DNA of 32,562 nucleotides from Candidatus Heimdallarchaeota archaeon (GTDB lineage Archaea; Asgardarchaeota; Heimdallarchaeia; Hodarchaeales; Hodarchaeaceae). The stretch spans positions 1 to 32,562 of the forward strand of contig DXJL01000172.1 of the NCBI GenBank assembly GCA_019057635.1. The letters are read 5' to 3'. Positions 5,543 through 24,461 of the stretch are shown one piece after another; positions within the stretch are counted from its first letter, which is position 1, and the number at the start of each line of letters is the position of its first letter. Under the pieces are notes generated by a model that saw only the letters and a list, made by a program, of their open reading frames with translations, had not been told where the DNA came from and ran no database searches. The position numbers were made by a program, and so were the translations under genes.

Positions 5543-5896
5543 ATGAGTGACTTTGAAGATATAGATTTTGATCTTGAAGAAACATCGTCTGTAAAGGCAA
5601 AAACTCCTGCACAGTCGAAGACACCCGTAACAGGGACTACCTCTGGACCCAAGAAGAATATTTTCTTTAAATCAACCGTTGGCCCTGAGAGAACAGAGAA
5701 ACTCTCCGTCGGTGAAAAAACACCCGTGAGAGATGTCCGAGATACACTAGCGAATATCTTTGGATTAGATCCAGATGATTTTCACTTATCTCATGCTGGA
5801 CGAACTCTTGATGAAAGCTCTCCAATCGGAGATTATGGTATCGAAAATGGTGATGAAATCCTCTTAATTCCTCATTCAACCGCTGGATGGAATTAA
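5543..5896 (+). CDS. Ubiquitin-like modifier 1 (pro-form, ends STAG-WN)
   Basis: Beta-grasp pattern FHLSHAGRTLDESSPIGDYGIENGDEILLIP, compared with ubiquitin [29 protein letters not shown]. It heads the E1/E2/JAMM cluster. Confidence 0.9.
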   Translation: MSDFEDIDFDLEETSSVKAKTPAQSKTPVTGTTSGPKKNIFFKSTVGPERTEKLSVGEKTPVRDVRDTLANIFGLDPDDFHLSHAGRTLDESSPIGDYGIENGDEILLIPHSTAGWN

Positions 5897-5918: not shown

Positions 5919-6145
5919 CCCAATTTTTACAAAAATAAAAGGTTGGAAATAATTAAAACTAGATAGAAACTCTTTAATTCCAATTAACTGGCATTTAGTT
6001 GAAAATTCAGATAGATATTTATGGAATGATTACGATGAAACTGATTGTATTCTCTTTACAAATTTTAAGAGCTGGAACACCTCCGAAAGTTAAGGATAAT
6101 ATCTTTCCAGAATTTAGCACCGAGAATACTAGGGAAGACGTAATT

Positions 6146-6499
6146 ATGTCGGAAAATGAAGAGTTTATTGAATTTGAAGAAGAAGAAGGGGAAGAGGGGC
6201 AAAACGATTCATCGATACAATCTAAAGTTTCGCGTTCCAAAGTCCCAAATGGACAACGAATAACATTATTCTTCCGATCAACAATTGGACGCCATGAAAA
6301 ACAAGAAAAACTAACTGTAGATCCAGAATTATCTGTACGGGAATTAGCCGCAACAGTTGGTGAAATATTTGCACTAGATCCACAAGACTTTCACCTTTCA
6401 ATTAGTGGACGAACATTGGATTCGGATGATGTATTGTCAAATTATGATCTGGAAAATGGACTAGAAGTCCTAATTATCCCTGTAAGTACTGCAGGATAA
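6146..6499 (+). CDS. Ubiquitin-like modifier 2 (mature form, ends STAG)
   Basis: Paralogue of Ubl1 (FFRSTIG, IFALDPQDFHLSISGRTLD, YDLENG, IPVSTAG). The start is re-assigned to ATG 6146 (MSENEEF), which gives 117 aa like Ubl1. Confidence 0.9.
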   Translation: MSENEEFIEFEEEEGEEGQNDSSIQSKVSRSKVPNGQRITLFFRSTIGRHEKQEKLTVDPELSVRELAATVGEIFALDPQDFHLSISGRTLDSDDVLSNYDLENGLEVLIIPVSTAG

Positions 6500-6524: not shown

Positions 6525-7763
6525 ATGTCAAATTTCACAAGTAAAACACTAACAAATGAGGAAAAACGACGCTTTGATCGTCAATTTCGTCTTCCTGGAT
6601 GGAACCAAGAAATTCTAAAACAAAGCTCAGTCCTCATTGCGGGAATAGGGGGCTTAGGCGTAGAAATAGCTAAAAACTTGGCTATGGTTGGTGTTGGACA
6701 CTTAATACTTGTGGATCTTGATACAATTGAATATTCAAATTTGAATCGTCAGATATTGTTTATTGGTGCACCAGAGGGTGCCTCAAAAGCAAAGATCGCA
6801 GCGAAAAGACTTCGTGAAATGAATCCATTCATCACCATTGATGCTTATGATTGCCCCTTACAAGATGTACCTCCTCATATTTACAGCAAGGTCGATTTTT
6901 ATATAGCTGGTCTTGACTCTATTGAAGCTAGATCTGAATTAAATCGAAGAGCAGTTCATAACAAGAAATATCTCATTGATGCAGGCACTTCAGTGTACAA
7001 TGGCCATGCATATGTAGTTTCTCCGTTCAATAACGCATGCTTGGAGTGTGATCCATTAACTGAACGTAATCAAGATCAGCTTGGAGCATGTACACTCGTG
7101 GGAAAACCTCGTAGACCAGCTCATTGTATTCTTAAAGGACAGTTACACTTCGAACAAAAACACGGAAAACCAGTTAATATTCTAAAGTCAAATGAAGTTA
7201 AAGATGTAGTCTTATACGCAAATAAACTTCTCAAAGAATATTTTCCCCAAGAAGAGCAATTTTCGATAAACCAGATTATTCAGATAATTGATAATCACGA
7301 ACCGACAGTTATCACAATAAATTGCGTAATGGCATCTCTTCAATCACAAGAGGCTGTCAAAATACTACATCATATTCACACACCAGAGCCAGAGAAGAAA
7401 TTGGGGAATATCCAATTAAACTATTTGATTTATAATGGTTTAACGGGTAAATTTTATGAGATTGAAAAACCACGTAATCCCAAATGCGAAATGTGTGGAC
7501 GGGGAAGAACTTCAATATTTCGTATCAAAGTTAAACGAAACTTTCCTTTAACACGGTTAATAGAGAAATTTTCTCATGATAAAAATTACCCGATTGACCC
7601 TGAATTTCCTCCTATGATATTTAGGATTGATTCTTCGGAAATTGGGGAAATATCTATAGAACAAACAATATCTCAAGCTGAAATAAGGGATTGTGAGACA
7701 GTTCTTGTAACTGGTTTTGACGATGGATCACAAGCATATCTTACACTAAAGTTAGAAGGTTAA
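6525..7763 (+). CDS. Ubiquitin-activating enzyme E1 (Uba2/Uba3-like)
   Basis: RFDRQ, GIGGLG, DTIEYSNLNRQ, GLDSIEAR, Zn ligands CLEC and CEMC, catalytic segment ACTLVGKPRRPAHCI (Cys189), and a C-terminal extension where the E2-binding ubiquitin-fold domain is expected. Confidence 0.93.
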   Translation: MSNFTSKTLTNEEKRRFDRQFRLPGWNQEILKQSSVLIAGIGGLGVEIAKNLAMVGVGHLILVDLDTIEYSNLNRQILFIGAPEGASKAKIAAKRLREMNPFITIDAYDCPLQDVPPHIYSKVDFYIAGLDSIEARSELNRRAVHNKKYLIDAGTSVYNGHAYVVSPFNNACLECDPLTERNQDQLGACTLVGKPRRPAHCILKGQLHFEQKHGKPVNILKSNEVKDVVLYANKLLKEYFPQEEQFSINQIIQIIDNHEPTVITINCVMASLQSQEAVKILHHIHTPEPEKKLGNIQLNYLIYNGLTGKFYEIEKPRNPKCEMCGRGRTSIFRIKVKRNFPLTRLIEKFSHDKNYPIDPEFPPMIFRIDSSEIGEISIEQTISQAEIRDCETVLVTGFDDGSQAYLTLKLEG

Positions 7764-7769
7764 TTTATC

Positions 7770-8297
7770 ATGTCTATTCGCATTAAACGTATTGCAGAAG
7801 ATTATAATCAATTAAAAACTCTTTACAAGCAAAAGACGATTAAACAGCTAAAAGCTTTCCCAGGAGAGAAAAAAAGTGTAGAGCACTTAGCTGTTCTTCT
7901 CGAAGGTCCAAAAGGTACTCCCTACCAAGACGGGAAGTTTATGCTCGAAATTAAATTTGGTTCCAATTACCCCTATTCTCCTCCTTTCGTAAGATTACAT
8001 ACCCCGATTTGGCACCCGAATTTTTGGCCCAAACCTGATGAATATAAGGGAAAACGGAATATTTGTCTTGGATTAGTCGACCCCGACTTGGTAGGGAAAC
8101 CACAAGGATGGTCTCCGTCAAAAAATGTTACCACAGTGATATACTCAATTTTAGCAATGTTCAACATTGATGAAGCTTACACTAACCCTCATGATGTTTT
8201 TAACAAGAAAGCTGCGGTGGAATACCTGAAAAATAAGGATAAATTCAAAGAAAAGGCTAAAAAAATCACTAAGAAGTATGCAAAAAAGAAGTGGTGA
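7770..8297 (+). CDS. Ubiquitin-conjugating enzyme E2
   Basis: GPKGTPYQDGKF, YPYSPP, HPN motif, catalytic ICL (Cys99) and WSP motif. Confidence 0.95.
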   Translation: MSIRIKRIAEDYNQLKTLYKQKTIKQLKAFPGEKKSVEHLAVLLEGPKGTPYQDGKFMLEIKFGSNYPYSPPFVRLHTPIWHPNFWPKPDEYKGKRNICLGLVDPDLVGKPQGWSPSKNVTTVIYSILAMFNIDEAYTNPHDVFNKKAAVEYLKNKDKFKEKAKKITKKYAKKKW

Positions 8298-8342
8298 GGG
8301 TTTGAGAAGATTAGTAAAGTACCAGCAAAAGTGGTCTATTTG

Positions 8343-9152
8343 ATGCCAGATAAAAAAAAAGAAAAACCGCGGAATTTATTCGAACTTCTTCTGAGAGATA
8401 CCTCCATGAATTATGATCCAGATAATTTAACTCTTACTTTAAAATTCCCGACTACTGAATCCAAAAAAATTCCTCCTTCAGAGGAGACGTTTTCGCTGAA
8501 AAATGACAGCACTCATGGAGAAGTAGACTTACTCGATATTGATGATTTAGATCCAGAAATCGATCCAGCAAGAGTGAAACTTCAATTAAAAGCCTACATC
8601 CGTCTAAGTCTCCATGCTCTAAAGTATGCAAATTCAACACTTCCTCAAGCAGAATGGGTTGAAGTTATAGGGCTGTTAACAGGACATATTGAGAATAAAG
8701 ATACTCCCCTTGCGTGTTTGGTGATTTCAGACGCATTTCCAGTAGGTCATGGAACAAATGTTAATGCTCAAATCGAGGATCCCCAAAGCATGGTGCGAGT
8801 ATTCAATGAAAGTAGGAAGAAAAATGAACTAATTCTTGGATGGTACCATTCACATCCTTCTTATGGAGCATTTATGAGTACAACCGATTATAGAACACAA
8901 GTTCGCTATCAAAAATTAGGAACTAAAGGATCTCAACTCGCGGCGCCGATTGCACTCGTTATTGATCCAACTAAAATATCCAGAAGAAATTATGGATTTA
9001 AAATCTTCAGGCTAAATAAAGATTTGAAAACATGGGAAGAACCTCGTTATGAAGTTTTAAACTGCCCTTTAGAAAGCCTTCCGGAATTAATCAGCACACT
9101 ACTACCCTTAGCAGAAGGGAAAACAATGTTCTTAGAATATGACTATGATTGA
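8343..9152 (+). CDS. JAMM/MPN+ metalloprotease (Rpn11/CSN5-like deubiquitinase or maturase)
   Basis: EVIGLL, GWYHSHPSYGAFMSTTD (intact E...HxHx7Sx2D) and ALVIDP. The start is either ATG 8343 or GTG 8331. Confidence 0.93.
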   Translation: MPDKKKEKPRNLFELLLRDTSMNYDPDNLTLTLKFPTTESKKIPPSEETFSLKNDSTHGEVDLLDIDDLDPEIDPARVKLQLKAYIRLSLHALKYANSTLPQAEWVEVIGLLTGHIENKDTPLACLVISDAFPVGHGTNVNAQIEDPQSMVRVFNESRKKNELILGWYHSHPSYGAFMSTTDYRTQVRYQKLGTKGSQLAAPIALVIDPTKISRRNYGFKIFRLNKDLKTWEEPRYEVLNCPLESLPELISTLLPLAEGKTMFLEYDYD

Positions 9153-9175: not shown

Positions 9176-10288
9176 TTGGTTGGAAGAAATGTCTATATTT
9201 CCGTATTTCTTACTGGATTGGTCTTTGCGTTCTTAAGCCAAATCGTTAACCCACAGAGCTCTCTCTCGATAACGATAATTTATTTCGCTTTCGTTGCTAT
9301 TTTAATAATCAAACTAGTAGATGAATGGCGTTATTACCGATCATATAATGCTCCACTTGCTTCAGCAATTTTTATTAGTATTCCTGCTCTGATTGCTATC
9401 GGGGGGAGTTTGATTGCATTTACTGCCACATTAGGCGATACGGAAAATTTCCTCCATGCAACATTTATGGAATTAAATTTAAACCTAAATTTATTTCAAT
9501 TAGATTCTTTCTATCTGTTTTTAAATTTATTTAGTCTAATATTTTGTTTGCCCTTCTTTGTAATACTCGGAATTCTAATTAGAAGATACTATTCTGGAAC
9601 CTATCCTAATATTTTCATATTTCGACGACGATTTCCTTCTGAATCAATAATTGTGTTAAATGCAAGTTTTCTTGTAATTTTCACCATTTTTTGGTTAGAT
9701 CAAAAGACAATTGAAATGTCGTCATTATTTTTCTTACTTTTCAGTATTCTAACCTTCATTCAAAATTATATACTCAAATTTGTAATTATTCCCCTTAGAC
9801 GTGTTTCTAGAACTTCCACTAGAGATTTTCAATCACAGAGAAGAGGTGCTAGATCTTCTAGAACACCAGTAGAAACTCGTCGATCAACTTCACAGCCATC
9901 ACGTGTAACCCGAGTACAGGAAAGAACGAGTAGAAGCCCCCATAGATCAAGTGTTCAAGTCGCTCCTCCAATACACATGCCAAAGAGAACAAAGAGGAAA
10001 CTAACTCCTGCACTTATTGCCAGTTTAACCCCAGCAGGTCAGAACATTTCAAAGGACGATTTTCGATGTATTTATTGCTATGAATTTCCCACAGAATCAG
10101 ATAAACAGGTAGTCATTTGCCCTCGTTGTAAACATCCATCTCATGCTGATGAGTTTCAAAAATGGCTTTTGGTGTCTGATATTTGTAGCCGTTGCAATCA
10201 ACCCATTAATAATGTAAAAATGATCCGGATTTCAGGACCCAGTTATCAGAAAATAATTCAAATGTTCCAGAAAAAATACAGAAAATAA
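9176..10288 (+). CDS. Polytopic membrane protein with a C-terminal RING-variant domain (candidate E3 ligase)
   Basis: About six TM segments, an R/S/T-rich linker, then CIYC-x13-CPRCKHPSHADEFQKW-x6-CSRC. Confidence 0.85.
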   Translation: MVGRNVYISVFLTGLVFAFLSQIVNPQSSLSITIIYFAFVAILIIKLVDEWRYYRSYNAPLASAIFISIPALIAIGGSLIAFTATLGDTENFLHATFMELNLNLNLFQLDSFYLFLNLFSLIFCLPFFVILGILIRRYYSGTYPNIFIFRRRFPSESIIVLNASFLVIFTIFWLDQKTIEMSSLFFLLFSILTFIQNYILKFVIIPLRRVSRTSTRDFQSQRRGARSSRTPVETRRSTSQPSRVTRVQERTSRSPHRSSVQVAPPIHMPKRTKRKLTPALIASLTPAGQNISKDDFRCIYCYEFPTESDKQVVICPRCKHPSHADEFQKWLLVSDICSRCNQPINNVKMIRISGPSYQKIIQMFQKKYRK

Positions 10289-10305: not shown

Positions 10306-10890
10306 ATGGCTATACGACATAATATCGCTTGGTTTATCATGCTCATTGGCGTATCAGCTACTATTTTCTTTTTTATACAAAATCAGGATACATTAGCCCT
10401 TAACATCCTATTCTTATCCGTTTATACTGCGATTACTATTGTATATTTTTTACGGATATTCTACTACGTTGATCATCATGCCACTTTAAACGAAATCTAC
10501 TTTATATCTCTTGCAAATATCATTCCGCTCGCAATTATCCTTGTTAGCCCCCTTTTTCCTATATTTCAAGAAGTTTTATTATCCTTTGAAATAAATATGA
10601 TGCCTTCAAATGAATTCATCGAACTTCATATTGCAGTACCTTCCTTACTTGCTTTTCCGTATTTAGTAGTCTCAACAGCGTTGTTAATACGAAGTTTCAC
10701 TCGCTATCAATTCATTAGAATTACTGCTCAGTCTGAGAGGGGGCCTTCCGCCGAATGGACGGCAATTTTCACTTTTCTTATCTTCGGGATTTTATTTCTA
10801 GCTGCTGGAGCATTTGCATCTGATCTTCTTGGAATATTATATGGTCTCTTTTTCATTTTCTCTGGAATTGGATTTATTCTGGGAAAATAA
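10306..10890 (+). CDS. Polytopic membrane protein, probable paralogue of the E3 membrane domain without RING
   Basis: About six TM segments that align by eye with the N-terminal 200 aa of 9176..10288; 17 bp downstream of it. Confidence 0.75.
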   Translation: MAIRHNIAWFIMLIGVSATIFFFIQNQDTLALNILFLSVYTAITIVYFLRIFYYVDHHATLNEIYFISLANIIPLAIILVSPLFPIFQEVLLSFEINMMPSNEFIELHIAVPSLLAFPYLVVSTALLIRSFTRYQFIRITAQSERGPSAEWTAIFTFLIFGILFLAAGAFASDLLGILYGLFFIFSGIGFILGK

Positions 10891-10938: not shown

Positions 10939-11640
10939 TTGAAGAAGTTATTTCTGGAAATAGTGCAGGATAGTATGTTCAAAGTGGCTCGATTCAAAGT
11001 TCGATCAAAAATGCCGAAGGATACAATCAAAGAGAAAACTCCAATGAAAGAAAAAGTTGCTACTATTGATCAAAAAACTCCTAATGATTTGAAAGAGCAA
11101 TTTGAGCTACCTCCTGCGCGAAAAAATGAGCAAGGAGTAATAAAAAAAGAATCTGTTACCCATCCCACTAGTTATGGAACAAAAGAAAAGAGAGAAAAGC
11201 AAATACGTGGCATGAACAAACTTCCTCCTGTTACTCAGACTCAGGGTAGGAAAGAATCGCCAACTCCATCTACTAAAGGGAGTCTCCCAAAATCAAAACG
11301 TAAAAAAGGCCTAGTAAATCGAAAAGTACCAATACGAATAAAAAAAATCCAGGATCATAAAAATATCCCTCCAACTCGGAGAGGTATTGCTGAAAAGAAA
11401 CAAAATCGGATAATAAACAAGACTCCTCCACCTCGCATCACTACAAAAATTCCCAAGAAAACAACTATACCTCCCCCTAGCACACTAGGATCCAAACAAA
11501 AGCACAAAAAAGACATCAGGAGTAAAACACCTCCAAAATCTATTCTAGAAAAAAGACCAATGGAAGAAAAATCAATTCCATCGACTATAATCAAAAAGAA
11601 AATATCTAAAATACAAATAAAAAGGAAAACACCAGAGTAG
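10939..11640 (+). CDS. Lys/Pro-rich, probably disordered basic protein (start uncertain)
   Basis: 233-codon open frame, about 21% Lys by manual count, recurring (T/I/L)PP motifs. Confidence 0.55.
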   Translation: MKKLFLEIVQDSMFKVARFKVRSKMPKDTIKEKTPMKEKVATIDQKTPNDLKEQFELPPARKNEQGVIKKESVTHPTSYGTKEKREKQIRGMNKLPPVTQTQGRKESPTPSTKGSLPKSKRKKGLVNRKVPIRIKKIQDHKNIPPTRRGIAEKKQNRIINKTPPPRITTKIPKKTTIPPPSTLGSKQKHKKDIRSKTPPKSILEKRPMEEKSIPSTIIKKKISKIQIKRKTPE

Positions 11641-11759
11641 GGACTACTTAGTAAGTTGCTTAGGCTAAGTAGGTGAGAATGTATACCTCTATTCAAAATC
11701 ATATAAACACGAGACCAGTACTCTCAAATATAATTCCTACTCCCGAAGAGGTGTACATA

Positions 11760-12293
11760 TTGAAGAAGAATTACAAAGAAGCTCTCATCATATTTGTTGG
11801 TGGAATTGGCGTTTTTCCTATATTATTGTCTATTTTTGCTCAACATATAGACTTTGGTTTGGCAATCGTGATAGCCTTTCCATTCTTTCTAGTAGCAGGA
11901 GTCCTAAACGGATTAATTGTTGTAACCTCAAGCAAACCAGGTCCATTAATCCTTAATAAATCTCAAAAGGGGGCAGTTATAACGCTTATTGGAGGTATAG
12001 GGGCGTTTGCTATTTTAATTGGACTTTTTTGGCCAACTATGTCCTTTGGATACACTCTTGTTACAGCTTATGGATTTTTTCTAATTGCGGGAACCTTAGG
12101 AGCATTAATTGAAGAAAGATCAACTTCAGATTATAAAGAACGTTATTATCCACCTGAGAATGTTGATAAGACTTTGAATAAGCAAACATTATCAGATCCG
12201 ATATCTGGTTCACAATGTCCATCTTGTGGAAGGCAATTAGAGGCAGGTAGTATCTTCTGTACACATTGTGGAAAGAAATCTCTCTCTTCCTAG
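11760..12293 (+). CDS. 4-TM protein with an internal duplication and a C-terminal zinc ribbon
   Basis: GAGGTG precedes TTG 11760. Duplicated GGIG.F.IL...F......FF..AG.L..LI halves; C-terminal CPSCG...FCTHCG. Confidence 0.75.
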   Translation: MKKNYKEALIIFVGGIGVFPILLSIFAQHIDFGLAIVIAFPFFLVAGVLNGLIVVTSSKPGPLILNKSQKGAVITLIGGIGAFAILIGLFWPTMSFGYTLVTAYGFFLIAGTLGALIEERSTSDYKERYYPPENVDKTLNKQTLSDPISGSQCPSCGRQLEAGSIFCTHCGKKSLSS

Positions 12294-20615: not shown

Positions 20616-23600
20616 ATGCAATCTGAGCGTGAAAGAATGTCTGATAAAAACCCTAATATTTTTAAATCAGCTCTAATCATACTTTTTTTAATATTTACTT
20701 TGATTCTTAATTCCTCATTACCTAGCACCTTTGAGATAAGTCATAATACTGATATAGAGAGTTTACTTTCAAACAATACTTCTCATGCAAAGGTTAAACC
20801 TCCTTCTGAAAGCATTAAGGATGGTCCTTTTGAATTTATGTTCCCTGAAGATCCTACAGCGGAATTTCAAGCAAAAGTCACTTCTCATGGACCTTCAACT
20901 GAAAAACCATCTCAAACCGTTGGTACGATTAATATTGCTGTAATCTTAATCGAATTCAAAGGATTGAAACATTCATCTGGTTATACACCTAATTATTATA
21001 GAAATTTGCTCTTTAATCATAATAATCCTAAAAGTACAGCAAGTTATTACTATGAAAATTCCTATGGAAAACTCAATATATCAGGGGAGATACTAGGCAA
21101 TAAATGGTTTCAATCTGTTTATTCTAAGCAATATTGGGGTGAAGATAATGGTTTAGTATTCCCCAATGTGGATAATAAAAATGACCACATTTATAATCTC
21201 GTAAAAGAAAGTGTTCTACTAGCTGACCCAGCTACTAATTTTAGTAGATATGATGCAGATGGAGATGATAAAGTAGATCATCTTTTAGTCATTCATGCAG
21301 GTGATGCTCAAGAACAAGCGGGAGGTCTCGCAGAGGATATTTGGTCACATAGATGGTGGATTCCAACTGGATGCCTGGTAGACGGTGTAACTGTAAAAGA
21401 ATATACAATGTGTGCCGAAACATCCCCAATAGGAACATTTGTTCACGAATTAGGCCATGATATAGGAAATTTACCCGATCTTTACGATGCAGATTATACC
21501 TCTGACGGAATTGGAAAATGGGGGGTGATGGGTTCAGGAGCTTGGAATTATAATGATACAGTAGGGTCAGGTGAGAAACCTGGTGATACCCCCGCTCAAT
21601 TTTGTGCCTATTCCAAGATTAAAATGGGATGGGTGATTCCTAAAATCGTCACCATCAATACTCCTAGTCTAATACTGCCCGCTATAGAAATTACAAGTAA
21701 AGGAAGTGTTTTGAAAATATTTCTCTCAAATGCTTCAAAAAGTGTAACTTTGAAAGAGTATTTTCTGGTGAGTTATCGGACACAGGTAGGTTTTGATAAA
21801 TTTATACCTGGTACTGGTATCCTTATATGGCATATTGATGAATGTTCCTTGGAAGAAGAAAATAACAATGAATACCGAAAACTTGTGGATTTAGAAGAAG
21901 CTGATGCTATTGTCGATGGATGGGAGCAGTTAGACTATTATAATAGTTCTCCTATCAATGCTACTATTCCAGATGATGAAGGTTCTCCTACGGATATCTG
22001 GTACCCCCTAAGTACTTTTTCTCATAGTTCTTTCCCAAATAGTGACAGCAATGGCGGAGTCTTCACAAATATACAAATTAATATCACGGGGGTGAATACA
22101 ATCGATATCGGAGTAACAGATGATCCTTTTCCGTGGGATTATACCCTTCAACTCATGAGTCAATCCTCCCCTTCTTTCATTGATGATGAACCAGCAATTG
22201 TAGAACATGGATCCCGTACGTTCGGAGTTAGTAGAGAATTTTCCGTCGTCTGGCATACAAATCGCTCTGGAAATCGTAATATTTGGGGTTGTCAAACTCT
22301 AGACGCAGGATTAACTTGGAAAACTCCTGTGGCAATAACCACAAATTCTGCAACTGATTTAAGTCCTTCAATGATTGTCGCTTCCCCACCAGCTTTTTGG
22401 ACTGGAATTTATGAAGCAGATCGGCCAATACAAAGTTGGCAGCTCGGCCCCAATGCTAGACCACCTCCTCATTTTGTAGTCGCATTCGTATCAGATCGTA
22501 CGGGTGATCCAGAAATATTTGTGACACTGAGTGACGATTTCTATACATGGAGCCACCCTGTTCAATTAACCAATAATACAGGGGCCGATGTTGACCCATG
22601 TTTAGTGCAAACGTCTTCTGGTATCGGTTTATTTTGGGCTGCTTATTCAAATGGAGATTTTGAAATATGTTTTATGGAAAATATATGGAATACTTCTAAT
22701 ATTGTCCAAATCACACAAAACTCATTTTTAGATCGTGGCCCCTCCTATTGTCGAACTCGAAATAATACACATTTACTAGCATATGAACACAATTCAGGAG
22801 GAAATTCAACAGTCCACTTACTTAGAACTAATGATATTTTATCATGGCCTACAACTTCTATTACATGTACCAGTCCAACTGTGGTTTCTACAGAAGTATC
22901 TTTACTTGAACGGGACGATCACACATTAGTTCTTACTTTTACGAGAATAAATCCGAACTTTGAAGAAATTCATCAGGTAATATCTTCTAATTGGATTCAT
23001 TGGAGCCCACATTTGGTAATGGGATTTCTTAAGAATGCTAGTAGTCCCAGTGTCATTGAAGCAGAATGTGGTTCTTTATTCATGAGTTATAGCTCGTACA
23101 ATTACTCACAGATTCACCATGTGTATCTAGTGCATACGACTCAATGTTTCAGGTTTGGAATAGGAATAAAATACCCCAGTGATACTGGGTCATCCTTTTT
23201 CGATCCCTATCGAGTTGAACAAAATAATGAATGGGTATATTCTGGAGACATGCAACTAAACGAATCCGATTTCGTTGCGGCCTCTGGGAATATTAACATT
23301 ACTTTTTATGATACACATAATACGGAGACTGAAGATGACGATCAGGGTATGGACTCACGTTCCTTTGATAATTCTGAGCCTTTTATTAATATTGATCCAG
23401 TCGTAGGGGTCGGAATTTTTAATATTTCATCCTTCCTCTTACCAATTCCTGCAGATTTGACGTTAGCTCAAACTTATCGTCTTGAGGTTGAATGGGGATA
23501 TACAGGTTTGGACTTTGAGTTTCACTCTGTGTCAGCATCAATGTATTTTGAAATAATACCACCAGATGATCATATTGTGTTCTCTGCAAATGATCCTGAA

Positions 23601-24461
23601 CCAACAACCTTCGATTCACCTTTTATTACACAATTCTCAATTTTAAAGGGACTGATAAGTTATGGAGTGGAATCAGTGACCTTGATGTACTATGACACTC
23701 AGGAAACAGCGGACATAGATGATGATCGACTTTATTCCCACGAAACATTAGTTTTCACTGAGATAGCAAAAAGATCAGGTGAATGGGCCGCTAAACTTCA
23801 TAATTTACAAGATAATCAAATAACACGAGTTGTCGCTATAGTAAATGGTATTCATCCTAGAATGAAGCACACGTTGTTCATTGAAAAACATCCAGAAGAT
23901 CGGATTCCACCTATACTTGCCCTAATAAGCCCCTTTGAGGGGTATACTACACACTCCTCTATAACATTCTCTGAATCTATCATCGATCCCTATACTATTG
24001 ATCCCTATAATTTCAATTACGGAGTGAATGAATCATCGATAAAATTCTCTTATAAAATAGTGGATCCAGAAAGTTACGAAAACCAAACAGAGTGGATAGA
24101 TGTACATTATGATCCCGCTAATAGTAGTTGGAAAAAGCTAGTTGATGTATATAATTTCACATTGACACTAAATCCTAATATTAAACCAATTATCATTTTA
24201 TTTTATTGGACAGCTTCAGATCTAGCAGAAATTCCTAATGTAGGTACAGATCGAAATCCAGAGAATCCTCATATCATATTTTTCTTATCAGAAACAATTA
24301 CCGTCTTTACTACCTATCTTGAATCATTAATTCCAACGACAACGTTGACTACAACATCTGTAGGCACTAACGGCTTTAGTCTGGGAATTATTCTCGCAAT
24401 GTCAGTCTTTACAATAATCATTTATCACTCGAGAAAGAAAAAAGCTAAAAAATCACAATAA
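20616..24461 (+). CDS. Secreted M6 family (immune inhibitor A-like) metalloprotease with a propeller-like repeat domain and CTERM anchor
   Basis: Signal/TM; YYENSYG, IHAGDAQE, IWSH, HELGHD..LPDLY, WGVMGSG; repeated W..P..(I/L)T.N...D..P units; TNGFS-TM-RKKKAKK. Confidence 0.9.
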   Translation: MQSERERMSDKNPNIFKSALIILFLIFTLILNSSLPSTFEISHNTDIESLLSNNTSHAKVKPPSESIKDGPFEFMFPEDPTAEFQAKVTSHGPSTEKPSQTVGTINIAVILIEFKGLKHSSGYTPNYYRNLLFNHNNPKSTASYYYENSYGKLNISGEILGNKWFQSVYSKQYWGEDNGLVFPNVDNKNDHIYNLVKESVLLADPATNFSRYDADGDDKVDHLLVIHAGDAQEQAGGLAEDIWSHRWWIPTGCLVDGVTVKEYTMCAETSPIGTFVHELGHDIGNLPDLYDADYTSDGIGKWGVMGSGAWNYNDTVGSGEKPGDTPAQFCAYSKIKMGWVIPKIVTINTPSLILPAIEITSKGSVLKIFLSNASKSVTLKEYFLVSYRTQVGFDKFIPGTGILIWHIDECSLEEENNNEYRKLVDLEEADAIVDGWEQLDYYNSSPINATIPDDEGSPTDIWYPLSTFSHSSFPNSDSNGGVFTNIQINITGVNTIDIGVTDDPFPWDYTLQLMSQSSPSFIDDEPAIVEHGSRTFGVSREFSVVWHTNRSGNRNIWGCQTLDAGLTWKTPVAITTNSATDLSPSMIVASPPAFWTGIYEADRPIQSWQLGPNARPPPHFVVAFVSDRTGDPEIFVTLSDDFYTWSHPVQLTNNTGADVDPCLVQTSSGIGLFWAAYSNGDFEICFMENIWNTSNIVQITQNSFLDRGPSYCRTRNNTHLLAYEHNSGGNSTVHLLRTNDILSWPTTSITCTSPTVVSTEVSLLERDDHTLVLTFTRINPNFEEIHQVISSNWIHWSPHLVMGFLKNASSPSVIEAECGSLFMSYSSYNYSQIHHVYLVHTTQCFRFGIGIKYPSDTGSSFFDPYRVEQNNEWVYSGDMQLNESDFVAASGNINITFYDTHNTETEDDDQGMDSRSFDNSEPFINIDPVVGVGIFNISSFLLPIPADLTLAQTYRLEVEWGYTGLDFEFHSVSASMYFEIIPPDDHIVFSANDPEPTTFDSPFITQFSILKGLISYGVESVTLMYYDTQETADIDDDRLYSHETLVFTEIAKRSGEWAAKLHNLQDNQITRVVAIVNGIHPRMKHTLFIEKHPEDRIPPILALISPFEGYTTHSSITFSESIIDPYTIDPYNFNYGVNESSIKFSYKIVDPESYENQTEWIDVHYDPANSSWKKLVDVYNFTLTLNPNIKPIIILFYWTASDLAEIPNVGTDRNPENPHIIFFLSETITVFTTYLESLIPTTTLTTTSVGTNGFSLGIILAMSVFTIIIYHSRKKKAKKSQ

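What the first reader, a model, noticed from the sequence alone, without database searches (positions are those of the whole stretch)
9176..10288. Polytopic membrane RING E3 with an atypical Zn ligand set
Seen: about six TMs, a long Arg/Ser/Thr-rich linker and a C-terminal RING (10067-10195). The sixth RING-H2 ligand position (HxxC) is Glu (HADE), an extra Cys occurs in CPRC, and the E2-contacting Trp is retained. Established: a multi-TM domain followed by a cytosolic RING-H2 is the architecture of Hrd1/gp78/TRC8-type ligases. Inference: analogous or homologous membrane ligase; homology of the TM domain cannot be shown by eye.
Basis: partly seen in the sequence, partly recalled or inferred. 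Interest (0 to 1): 0.75.

Follow-up and report, generated by a model that had tools for sequence, protein, structure and literature searches.

The report
Membrane-embedded RING ligase of Asgard ubiquitin operon
This gene encodes a six-helix membrane protein with a cytoplasmic RING-type zinc finger that is probably the ubiquitin ligase of an archaeal ubiquitin gene cluster, which suggests that these relatives of eukaryotes tag proteins with ubiquitin at the membrane.

Summary
ORF 9176-10288 (+, 370 aa, TTG start) has six TM helices (N-in/C-in), a disordered Arg/Ser/Thr-rich, Lys-poor linker and a C-terminal RING-like domain. It is the sixth gene of a tight cluster Ubl-Ubl-E1-E2-JAMM-(this)-TM194.

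The ligand register needs correcting. C315 of CPRC is invariant. The conserved set is therefore C298 C301 / C315 C318 / H323 E326 / C337 C340. E326 is present in 153 of 157 family members; paralogous soluble RINGs have His or Cys there.

A profile of the domain hits solved RING-H2 ligases (RNF24 E 3e-8, RNF4, Arkadia, gp78, Hrd1). The AF2 model matches RING/U-box folds.

Full-length members lie after Ub-E1-E2-JAMM in several Asgard classes. The downstream gene TM194 is a RING-less paralog of the 6-TM domain and is found only in the window's own class.

Verdict: a real membrane-anchored RING-type E3 and a new variant of a known kind. Catalysis, zinc stoichiometry and partners remain untested.

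The parts
9176..10288 (+). TM-RING gene: 370 aa, TTG start, six TM helices + linker + RING-like domain
   Evidence: ORF. 60 homolog clusters. TTG (or GTG) start shared by most orthologs, 14 TTG and 2 GTG of 17.
9176..9796 (+). 6-TM membrane domain (residues 1-207), N-in/C-in. Conserved cytoplasmic loops EEWRYYRSYNAPLASAIF (49-66) and RRYYSG.YP.IFIFR.RFP (136-154); beta-hairpin in outside loop 3-4.
   Evidence: Hydropathy, AF2, charge bias over 45 sequences, conservation. No known fold or family found.
9797..10024 (+). Disordered linker (residues 208-283): Arg/Ser/Thr/Pro-rich, nearly Lys-free
   Evidence: pLDDT below 50 for residues 211-273. Family-wide R 16.6% against K 2.6%; longest K-free run has median 72, minimum 54.
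10025..10285 (+). RING-like domain and C-terminal helix (residues 284-370). Proposed ligands C298, C301, C315, C318, H323, E326, C337, C340. E2-contact candidates I299, P316, W330.
   Evidence: Alignments A1 and A4. Motif census. PDB profile hits to RING-H2 E3s. Fold matches to RING/U-box.
10306..10890 (+). TM194: 194-aa six-TM protein, RING-less paralog of the TM domain, 17 nt downstream
   Evidence: hhalign E 7.3e-5, 132 colinear columns. Score 34.4 against controls of mean 14.7, sd 2.4, max 18.1. Same helix/hairpin layout in AF2. Adjacent in 18 of 19 loci. Found only in the window's own class, 51 of 400 genomes.
5543..5896 (+). Ubiquitin-like protein 1 (ends ...STAGWN)
   Evidence: PF00240 E 1.2e-8; C-termini
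5999..6499 (+). Ubiquitin-like protein 2 (ends ...STAG), long N-terminal extension
   Evidence: PF00240 E 1.3e-3, below cut-off; conserved in synteny
6525..7763 (+). E1-like activating enzyme (ThiF)
   Evidence: PF00899 E 2.5e-52
7770..8297 (+). E2 conjugating enzyme: HPN at 82, Cys99, YPYSPP at 67, SPS at 115
   Evidence: PF00179 E 2.8e-27; motifs
8331..9152 (+). JAMM/MPN+ metalloprotease (HSHPSYGAFMSTTD at 173), 23 nt upstream of TM-RING
   Evidence: PF01398 E 4.7e-15; motif
10939..11640 (+). 233-aa Lys/Pro-rich, probably disordered protein, conserved downstream of TM194 in close relatives; role unknown
   Evidence: No Pfam or NCBIfam hit; tblastn 28-86% identity in 16 of 19 loci

Best explanation
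The gene encodes the membrane-embedded RING-type E3 ligase of an Asgard-archaeal ubiquitin operon.

Shown:
- Six TM helices place the N- and C-termini in the cytoplasm.
- A linker of about 75 residues, disordered, Arg-rich and almost Lys-free, tethers a RING-like domain to the membrane.
- The gene follows Ubl, Ubl, E1, E2 and JAMM with gaps of 6-33 nt.

Inferred:
- The RING binds the operon's E2~Ubl through I299, P316 and W330, and stimulates transfer of the Ubl (C-terminus ...STAG, exposed by the JAMM protease where a short extension exists) to lysines of proteins in or at the membrane.
- The conserved cytoplasmic loops of the 6-TM domain act as the substrate or partner platform.
- The Lys-poor tether limits self-modification.
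- Zinc site 2 is C315/C318/C337/C340. Site 1 is C298/C301/H323 plus the carboxylate of E326. Alternatively, site 1 is zinc-free.
- In the window's class, the ligase probably pairs with its RING-less paralog TM194.
- The fate of tagged proteins (extraction and degradation, or ESCRT-type sorting) is open.
For: Operon context: Pfam calls for Ub, ThiF-E1, UQ_con-E2 and JAB; gaps of 25, 6, 33, 23 and 17 nt. JAMM lies directly upstream of TM-RING in 17 of 19 loci; the other 2 start inside the gene. It also does in 10 of 10 loci from other anonymised families.

RING identity: profile A4 (17 TM-RING domains plus 3 paralog RINGs) hits RNF24 3e-8, RNF4 1.7e-7, Arkadia 3.2e-7, RNF165 1e-6, AMFR 1e-4, synoviolin 2.7e-4 and yeast Hrd1 1.6e-3. 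The full-length family profile A1 alone hits RNF24 at 8.1e-4. Pfam on the 20 A4 domains: Prok-RING_1 11 of 20, zf-RING_2 9 of 20.

Ligand register: C298, C301, C315, C318, H323, W330, C337 and C340 are invariant. Position 326 is E in 153 of 157. It is His in two paralogs of the same genome and Cys in a small RING next to Ub in L041.

E2-contact residues: the C. subterraneum srfp needs I30 and W58 (PMC5654768, passages). Here C1+1 is I in 143 and M in 9 of 157.

Topology. Lys-poor linker. Distribution and vertical descent.
Against: - The window's own protein is below every Pfam RING cut-off (zf-RING_16 19.9 bits against 27.4; Prok-RING_1 18.0 against 29.1).
- Glu is not a ligand in the standard RING consensus as I recall it. 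The site may lack zinc, and a one-zinc or degenerate RING could be inactive.
- The residue after the last Cys, which aligns with Arg in RNF4, is Asn (N 91, D 33 of 157). K342 of the family is Q in this protein.
- No biochemical, expression or interaction data exist. The TM-RING/TM194 pairing rests on adjacency and paralogy only.
Confidence: 0.75

Rival explanations
1. It is a true homolog of the Hrd1/gp78 ERAD ligases. Its TM domain would descend from the same ancestor and form a retrotranslocation channel.
Against: - The match puts model residues 1-142 on chain residues 143-266. Two more TM helices then lie between the matched part and the RING, so it is not colinear.
- No Hrd1 chain appears in the 50 rows listed for the paralog TM194.
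- Six TM helices, against the eight I recall for Hrd1.
- No Pfam or NCBIfam hit on the TM part.
- Other RING-H2 proteins score better than Hrd1 or gp78 for the RING.
Confidence: 0.07
2. The zinc finger is not catalytic. It would be a degenerate RING that only docks ubiquitin, the E2 or the JAMM protease at the membrane (a receptor or scaffold), and the real E3 would be one of the small soluble RINGs encoded elsewhere.
For: Glu replaces a Cys/His ligand. The position aligned with Arg after the last Cys of RNF4 is Asn. There are weak sub-threshold zf_UBZ hits in 7 of 20 domains. The genome has two other RING proteins with a full Cys/His set.
Against: Glu is almost invariant rather than drifting, as expected for a functional residue. 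The hydrophobic and Trp E2-contact positions and P316 are conserved. In the loci from other classes, this protein is the only RING in the core operon in most cases.
Confidence: 0.13
3. The cluster is an anti-virus conjugation system (like bacterial Ubl-E1-E2-JAB defence operons), with the membrane protein as sensor or effector.
For: The E1 matches Cap2-type 'E1-E2' defence models (best 2.3e-17) and the JAMM weakly matches a JAB model.
Against: - These hits cover only the shared adenylation and JAB folds. The E2, both Ubls, TM-RING and TM194 match no PADLOC model.
- The gene is near-universal in its genus (19 of 21 genomes) and in another family (116 of 135).
- It sits in the same gene order and tracks the anonymised taxonomy in a tree. 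This is the pattern of a housekeeping gene, not a defence island.
- The flanking genes are ordinary.
Confidence: 0.05

Closest known systems
Small RING finger protein (srfp) of the Caldiarchaeum subterraneum ubiquitin operon (Hennell James et al. 2017, PMC5654768; passages read)
   Same: An archaeal RING encoded with Ub, E1, E2 and an Rpn11/JAMM protease. It has an additional Cys ('C3B') ahead of ligand 3 that may bind the second zinc. It has a hydrophobic residue after C1 and a Trp that are needed for activity.
   Different: The srfp is small and soluble and is described as C3H2C3. This protein is fused behind a 6-TM domain and a long Lys-poor linker, has Glu at ligand 6, and lacks a conserved His at ligand 4.
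Pfam Prok-RING_1 (PF14446) and zf-RING_2 (PF13639)
   Same: These are the best-matching Pfam models: 11 and 9 of the 20 aligned domains at E up to 0.01.
   Different: The window's own domain scores 18.0 bits against a cut-off of 29.1, so it is not a member by Pfam's rule. From memory only, Pfam's text says bacterial Prok-RING_1 proteins carry TM helices; I could not check this because Burroughs et al. 2011 is not held.
Hrd1 / gp78 (AMFR) polytopic ERAD RING-H2 ligases
   Same: Polytopic membrane domain followed by a cytosolic RING-H2-type finger. The RING profile similarity is significant. The likely job, ubiquitylation at a membrane, is the same.
   Different: Six TM helices, not eight (the Hrd1 number is recalled). 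No demonstrable sequence or colinear structural similarity of the TM domains. Long disordered tether. Glu ligand.
RNF24 and other single-pass or PA-TM RING-H2 ligases; MARCH RING-CH ligases
   Same: RNF24 is the best solved-structure match. The spacing C-x2-C...C-x2-C-x4-H-x2-X resembles the C4HC3 spacing of RING-CH/PHD fingers (consensus recalled).
   Different: Unrelated membrane parts. In MARCH proteins the finger precedes the TM helices (recalled). All of them have Cys at ligand 6.

Membership tests
RING finger E3 (RING-H2 type) | Eight Cys/His zinc ligands in the C3H2C3 pattern | tested here: not met
   Seven conserved Cys/His. Position 6 is Glu in 153 of 157. The canonical ligand-4 His is variable, and an upstream Cys (C315) is invariant instead.
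RING finger E3 (RING-H2 type) | Significant sequence-profile similarity to known RING E3 domains | tested here: met
   A4 profile: RNF24 3e-8, RNF4 1.7e-7, Arkadia 3.2e-7. A1 profile: RNF24 8.1e-4.
RING finger E3 (RING-H2 type) | Reaches a Pfam RING model's gathering score | tested here: not met
   Best hits are zf-RING_16 at 19.9 bits against 27.4 and Prok-RING_1 at 18.0 against 29.1 for the window's domain.
RING finger E3 (RING-H2 type) | Cross-brace RING/U-box fold | tested here: met
RING finger E3 (RING-H2 type) | E2-contact residues (hydrophobic after C1, Pro before ligand 3 region, Trp after ligand 6) | tested here: met
   I299 is I in 143 and M in 9 of 157; P316 in 150 of 157. W330 is invariant in A1 and A4.
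RING finger E3 (RING-H2 type) | Binds two zinc ions and stimulates E2~Ub discharge | not testable with these tools
   Needs metal analysis and an in vitro assay.
Archaeal ubiquitin-operon RING (srfp type) | Encoded with Ub, E1, E2 and JAMM/Rpn11 | tested here: met
Archaeal ubiquitin-operon RING (srfp type) | Small soluble protein | tested here: not met
   370 aa with six TM helices.
Hrd1/gp78-type ERAD ligase | Polytopic domain N-terminal to a cytosolic RING-H2-type finger | tested here: met
   (architecture only).
Hrd1/gp78-type ERAD ligase | TM domain homologous to the Hrd1 TM domain | tested here: inconclusive
MARCH / RING-CH | C4HC3 finger N-terminal to the TM helices | tested here: not met
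   The finger is C-terminal to the TM helices and has Glu at position 6. The family definition is recalled.

The most novel reading that the evidence does not exclude
The resident E3 of the core Asgard ubiquitin operon is an integral membrane machine of a previously undescribed 6-TM fold. In the Heimdall/Hodarchaeales-type class it would work as a heteromer of a RING-bearing subunit and a RING-less paralogous subunit, and it would use a Cys2-His-Glu zinc site. If so, ubiquitylation in the archaeal relatives of eukaryotes was centred on the membrane. It would be a functional forerunner, though not necessarily an ancestor, of ERAD-type extraction or of ubiquitin-dependent ESCRT sorting of membrane proteins.
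Probability: 0.4. Interest if true: 0.8.

Novelty: new variant of a known kind. Interest (0 to 1): 0.6.

Why it matters
RING E3s in archaeal ubiquitin operons are known. In the passages I read they are small soluble proteins (PMC5654768; bioRxiv 10.1101/2023.07.25.550441).

Here the E3 that travels with Ub-E1-E2-JAMM across several Asgard classes is a polytopic membrane protein. This points to membrane or membrane-proximal proteins as the original clients of the system. That bears directly on how ERAD and ubiquitin-ESCRT sorting arose.

It also offers a natural RING in which a conserved Glu sits at a zinc-ligand position, and a 6-TM domain (with a RING-less paralog) that has no recognisable relative.

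All of this is testable with recombinant proteins. By a search listing only (bioRxiv 10.1101/2025.02.26.640444), it may also be testable in recently reported isolates of the order proposed as the closest relatives of eukaryotes.

Tried and rejected
- Complex prediction (TM domain A3 + TM194 A2) never ran.
- Derlin, rhomboid, Asi and MARCH chains do not appear in the rows listed. This is an absence from top lists only, not an exclusion.
- The HRD1 hit was weighed and set aside as evidence of homology: non-colinear, tied with unrelated helical proteins, and not seen with the paralog.
- ESM Atlas: no usable hit for the TM domain; scores of 0.82 or less for TM194.
- NCBIfam: only a spurious TPR_hemY hit at 18.5 bits against a cut-off of 142.
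- PADLOC: nothing for TM-RING or TM194.
- The look-up of sequencing runs: no RNA holder listed.
- The sigma-70 promoter and terminator scan is not applicable to archaea. It found fewer promoter-like sites than shuffles, and no plus-strand terminator-like site inside the cluster.
- Earlier findings of this scan: nothing at this place or for this sequence.
- Literature: seven full-text searches and passages of eight papers gave no description of a polytopic RING in an Asgard ubiquitin operon.
- Hatano et al. 2022 used IPR018611 as their E3 marker.
- Burroughs et al. 2011 is not held. Supplementary ESP or asCOG tables of Asgard genome papers were not seen and may list the family.

Full report
**What is there.** The window (about 35% G+C) carries a plus-strand cluster of tightly spaced genes:
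- two ubiquitin-like proteins (5543-5896, PF00240 E 1.2e-8; 5999-6499, weaker);
- a ThiF-type E1 (6525-7763, E 2.5e-52);
- a UQ_con E2 (7770-8297, E 2.8e-27; HPN at 82, Cys99);
- a JAMM/MPN+ protease (8331-9152, E 4.7e-15; intact H-x-H...S-x-x-D motif);
- the finding's ORF (9176-10288, 370 aa, TTG start);
- a 194-aa membrane protein, here called TM194 (10306-10890);
- a 233-aa Lys/Pro-rich protein (10939-11640).

The gaps from Ubl2 to TM194 are 25, 6, 33, 23 and 17 nt. The rest of the window holds ordinary genes: a methyltransferase, a peroxiredoxin, a histidine phosphatase, an M6 peptidase and others.

**Checking the observation.**
- Six hydrophobic segments are found by hydropathy. They appear as six long helices in an AlphaFold2 model built on 45 homologs (mean pLDDT 75.1, TM part 80-95).
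- Averaged over the 45 sequences, K+R per segment is 1.32, 1.58, 5.58 and 6.73 on the N-terminus, loop 2-3, loop 4-5 and after TM6. It is 0.16, 0.49 and 0.49 in the other three loops, which are acidic. This gives N-in/C-in, with the finger in the cytoplasm.
- Residues 211-273 are predicted disordered.
- Across the family the linker is 16.6% Arg and 2.6% Lys, and the longest Lys-free run has a median of 72 residues (minimum 54). ORFs of the same window have 5.1% K and 3.8% R.

**Ligand register.** In 45 full-length homologs, C298, C301, C315, P316, C318, P321, H323, E326, W330, C337, S338, R339, C340 and N341 are invariant. In a census of the 165 proteins returned by the two searches, 157 carry the motif; the 8 misses are fragments. 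Position 326 is E in 153, H in 2, A in 1 and D in 1.

Paralogous RINGs fix the register:
- two other RING proteins of the same genome read C-P-x-C-x4-H-x2-H;
- a small RING next to ubiquitin in a locus from another class reads C-x2-C-x4-H-x2-C.

In a joint alignment of 20 domains, the eight invariant columns are the seven Cys/His plus W330. The 'spare' Cys of CPRC is therefore a ligand, H320 is not, and Glu occupies ligand position 6.

Hennell James et al. (PMC5654768; passages read) noted the same upstream Cys ('C3B') in the C. subterraneum srfp. They showed that its I30 and W58 are needed for activity. The equivalents here are I299 (I 143, M 9 of 157) and the invariant W330.

**Is it a RING?**
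- The window's protein alone is below all Pfam cut-offs.
- Profiles are clear. The full-length family profile hits RNF24 at E 8.1e-4, with E326 on Cys 6. The domain profile, which includes the three paralogs, hits RNF24 3e-8, RNF4 1.7e-7, Arkadia 3.2e-7, RNF165 1e-6, listerin, EL5, RNF38, AMFR 1e-4, synoviolin 2.7e-4 and yeast Hrd1 1.6e-3.
- Of the 20 domains, 11 match Prok-RING_1 and 9 match zf-RING_2 at E up to 0.01.
- I take the fold and the homology as established at the level of prediction. Zinc content and catalysis are untested.

**Distribution and context.**
- The nearest named record is a Heimdallarchaeota MAG (94% identity). The other named hits are Hodarchaeales-type and other Asgard MAGs, all annotated 'hypothetical protein'.
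- In 19 public loci, JAMM lies directly upstream in 17 (two loci start inside the gene) and TM194 lies directly downstream in 18.
- In a sample of 400 genomes of the phylum, 235 match at E up to 1e-5. This count includes RING-only matches to paralogs. Strong matches that reach into the TM domain occur in the window's family (19 of 21), order and class. They also occur in families of other classes, one with 116 of 135 genomes.
- In ten loci fetched from those families, JAMM-TM-RING adjacency holds in 10 of 10. The Ub-E1-E2-JAMM-TM-RING order holds in the six loci from other classes whose contig reaches far enough; in the two same-class loci that reach, E1 and the Ubl lie elsewhere in the locus. 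In two loci examined, TM-RING ends the operon.
- A tree of 19 members splits the window's class from the others (support 100/99 on both sides) and follows the anonymised families (midpoint root only).

**The membrane domain and its paralog.**
- TM194 aligns colinearly with the first 140 residues of TM-RING: BLASTP E 0.14; hhalign E 7.3e-5 over 132 columns.
- In my own control, the real score of 34.4 compares with 15.1 and 15.2 for reversed alignments, and with a mean of 14.7 (sd 2.4, max 18.1) for 30 block-shuffles.
- Its AF2 model (pLDDT 74.1) has the same order of elements as TM-RING. TM194: helices 2-24, 28-56 and 61-83, a beta-hairpin at 90-110, then helices 111-140, 148-170 and 174-193. 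TM-RING: helices 2-24, 28-57 and 64-80, a hairpin at 96-117, then helices 118-139, 156-176 and 181-209.
- TM194 occurs in 51 of 400 genomes, all in the window's class (families 18/21, 2/2, 24/31 and 6/12), and in none elsewhere, for example 0 of 135. It is a RING-less duplicate that arose within that class.
- No relative of the 6-TM domain outside Asgard archaea was found.

**How it most likely works.**
- Shown: the architecture, the topology, the operon and the conservation pattern.
- Inferred:
  - The finger recruits the operon's E2~Ubl at the cytoplasmic face.
  - The conserved cytoplasmic loops of the 6-TM domain (and of TM194) form the client or partner surface.
  - The Arg-for-Lys bias of the tether protects the ligase from modifying itself.
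  - Site 1 uses Glu as fourth ligand, or has lost its zinc.
- Which proteins are tagged and what happens to them is open.

**Novelty.** I found no description of this family in seven full-text searches or in the passages read (as listed under Tried and rejected). Burroughs et al. 2011 and the supplementary ESP tables were not available. From memory, TM-linked prokaryotic RINGs have been noted in bacteria. I therefore rate it a new variant of a known kind rather than categorically new.

Noticed in passing
window 5543-5896 and 5999-6499; L001-L041: Nearly all of the operon's ubiquitin-like proteins end in ...STAG (Ala-Gly rather than Gly-Gly) in the Asgard loci examined; three listed tails differ (SIAG, SRAG and one unrelated ending). 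They carry 0-4 extra residues (WN on Ubl1 of the window, none on Ubl2). Both window Ubls have long acidic N-terminal extensions.
   Followed up: partly
window 9176; L001-L016: The TM-RING gene starts with TTG in 14 and GTG in 2 of 17 orthologs examined (LV.RN...). A GAGGT lies about 12 nt upstream in the window. This may be a conserved weak start for a low-abundance ligase.
   Followed up: partly
window 10939-11640: A 233-aa Lys/Pro-rich, probably disordered protein with no family hit is conserved (28-86% identity) downstream of TM194 in 16 of 19 loci. It is strikingly Lys-rich next to a Lys-poor ligase, so it could be a client or adaptor.
   Followed up: partly
L021 1435-1647 (+) and L022 1483-2784 (-), same genome, other contigs: Two further RING proteins with His at ligand position 6: a 70-aa small RING, and a 433-aa protein with one N-terminal TM helix, a long helical region and a C-terminal RING.
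   Followed up: partly
L041 11471-11677 (-): In a locus from another Asgard class, a small soluble RING with Cys at ligand 6 lies just upstream of the ubiquitin gene of the same operon. That operon therefore has both a soluble RING and a membrane RING.
   Followed up: no
window 11673-12293: A 206-aa protein with four predicted TM segments and a C-terminal zinc ribbon (PF13240 E 2.6e-6). It is conserved after the cluster only in the three closest loci.
   Followed up: no
window 20616-24461: A 1281-aa protein with an M6 (immune inhibitor A) peptidase domain (E 1.5e-22).
   Followed up: no
L038 and L039 (same class, other families): The gene order differs. E2-JAMM-TM-RING-TM194 stay together, but E1 and the Ubl lie some kilobases away on the same strand.
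   Followed up: no
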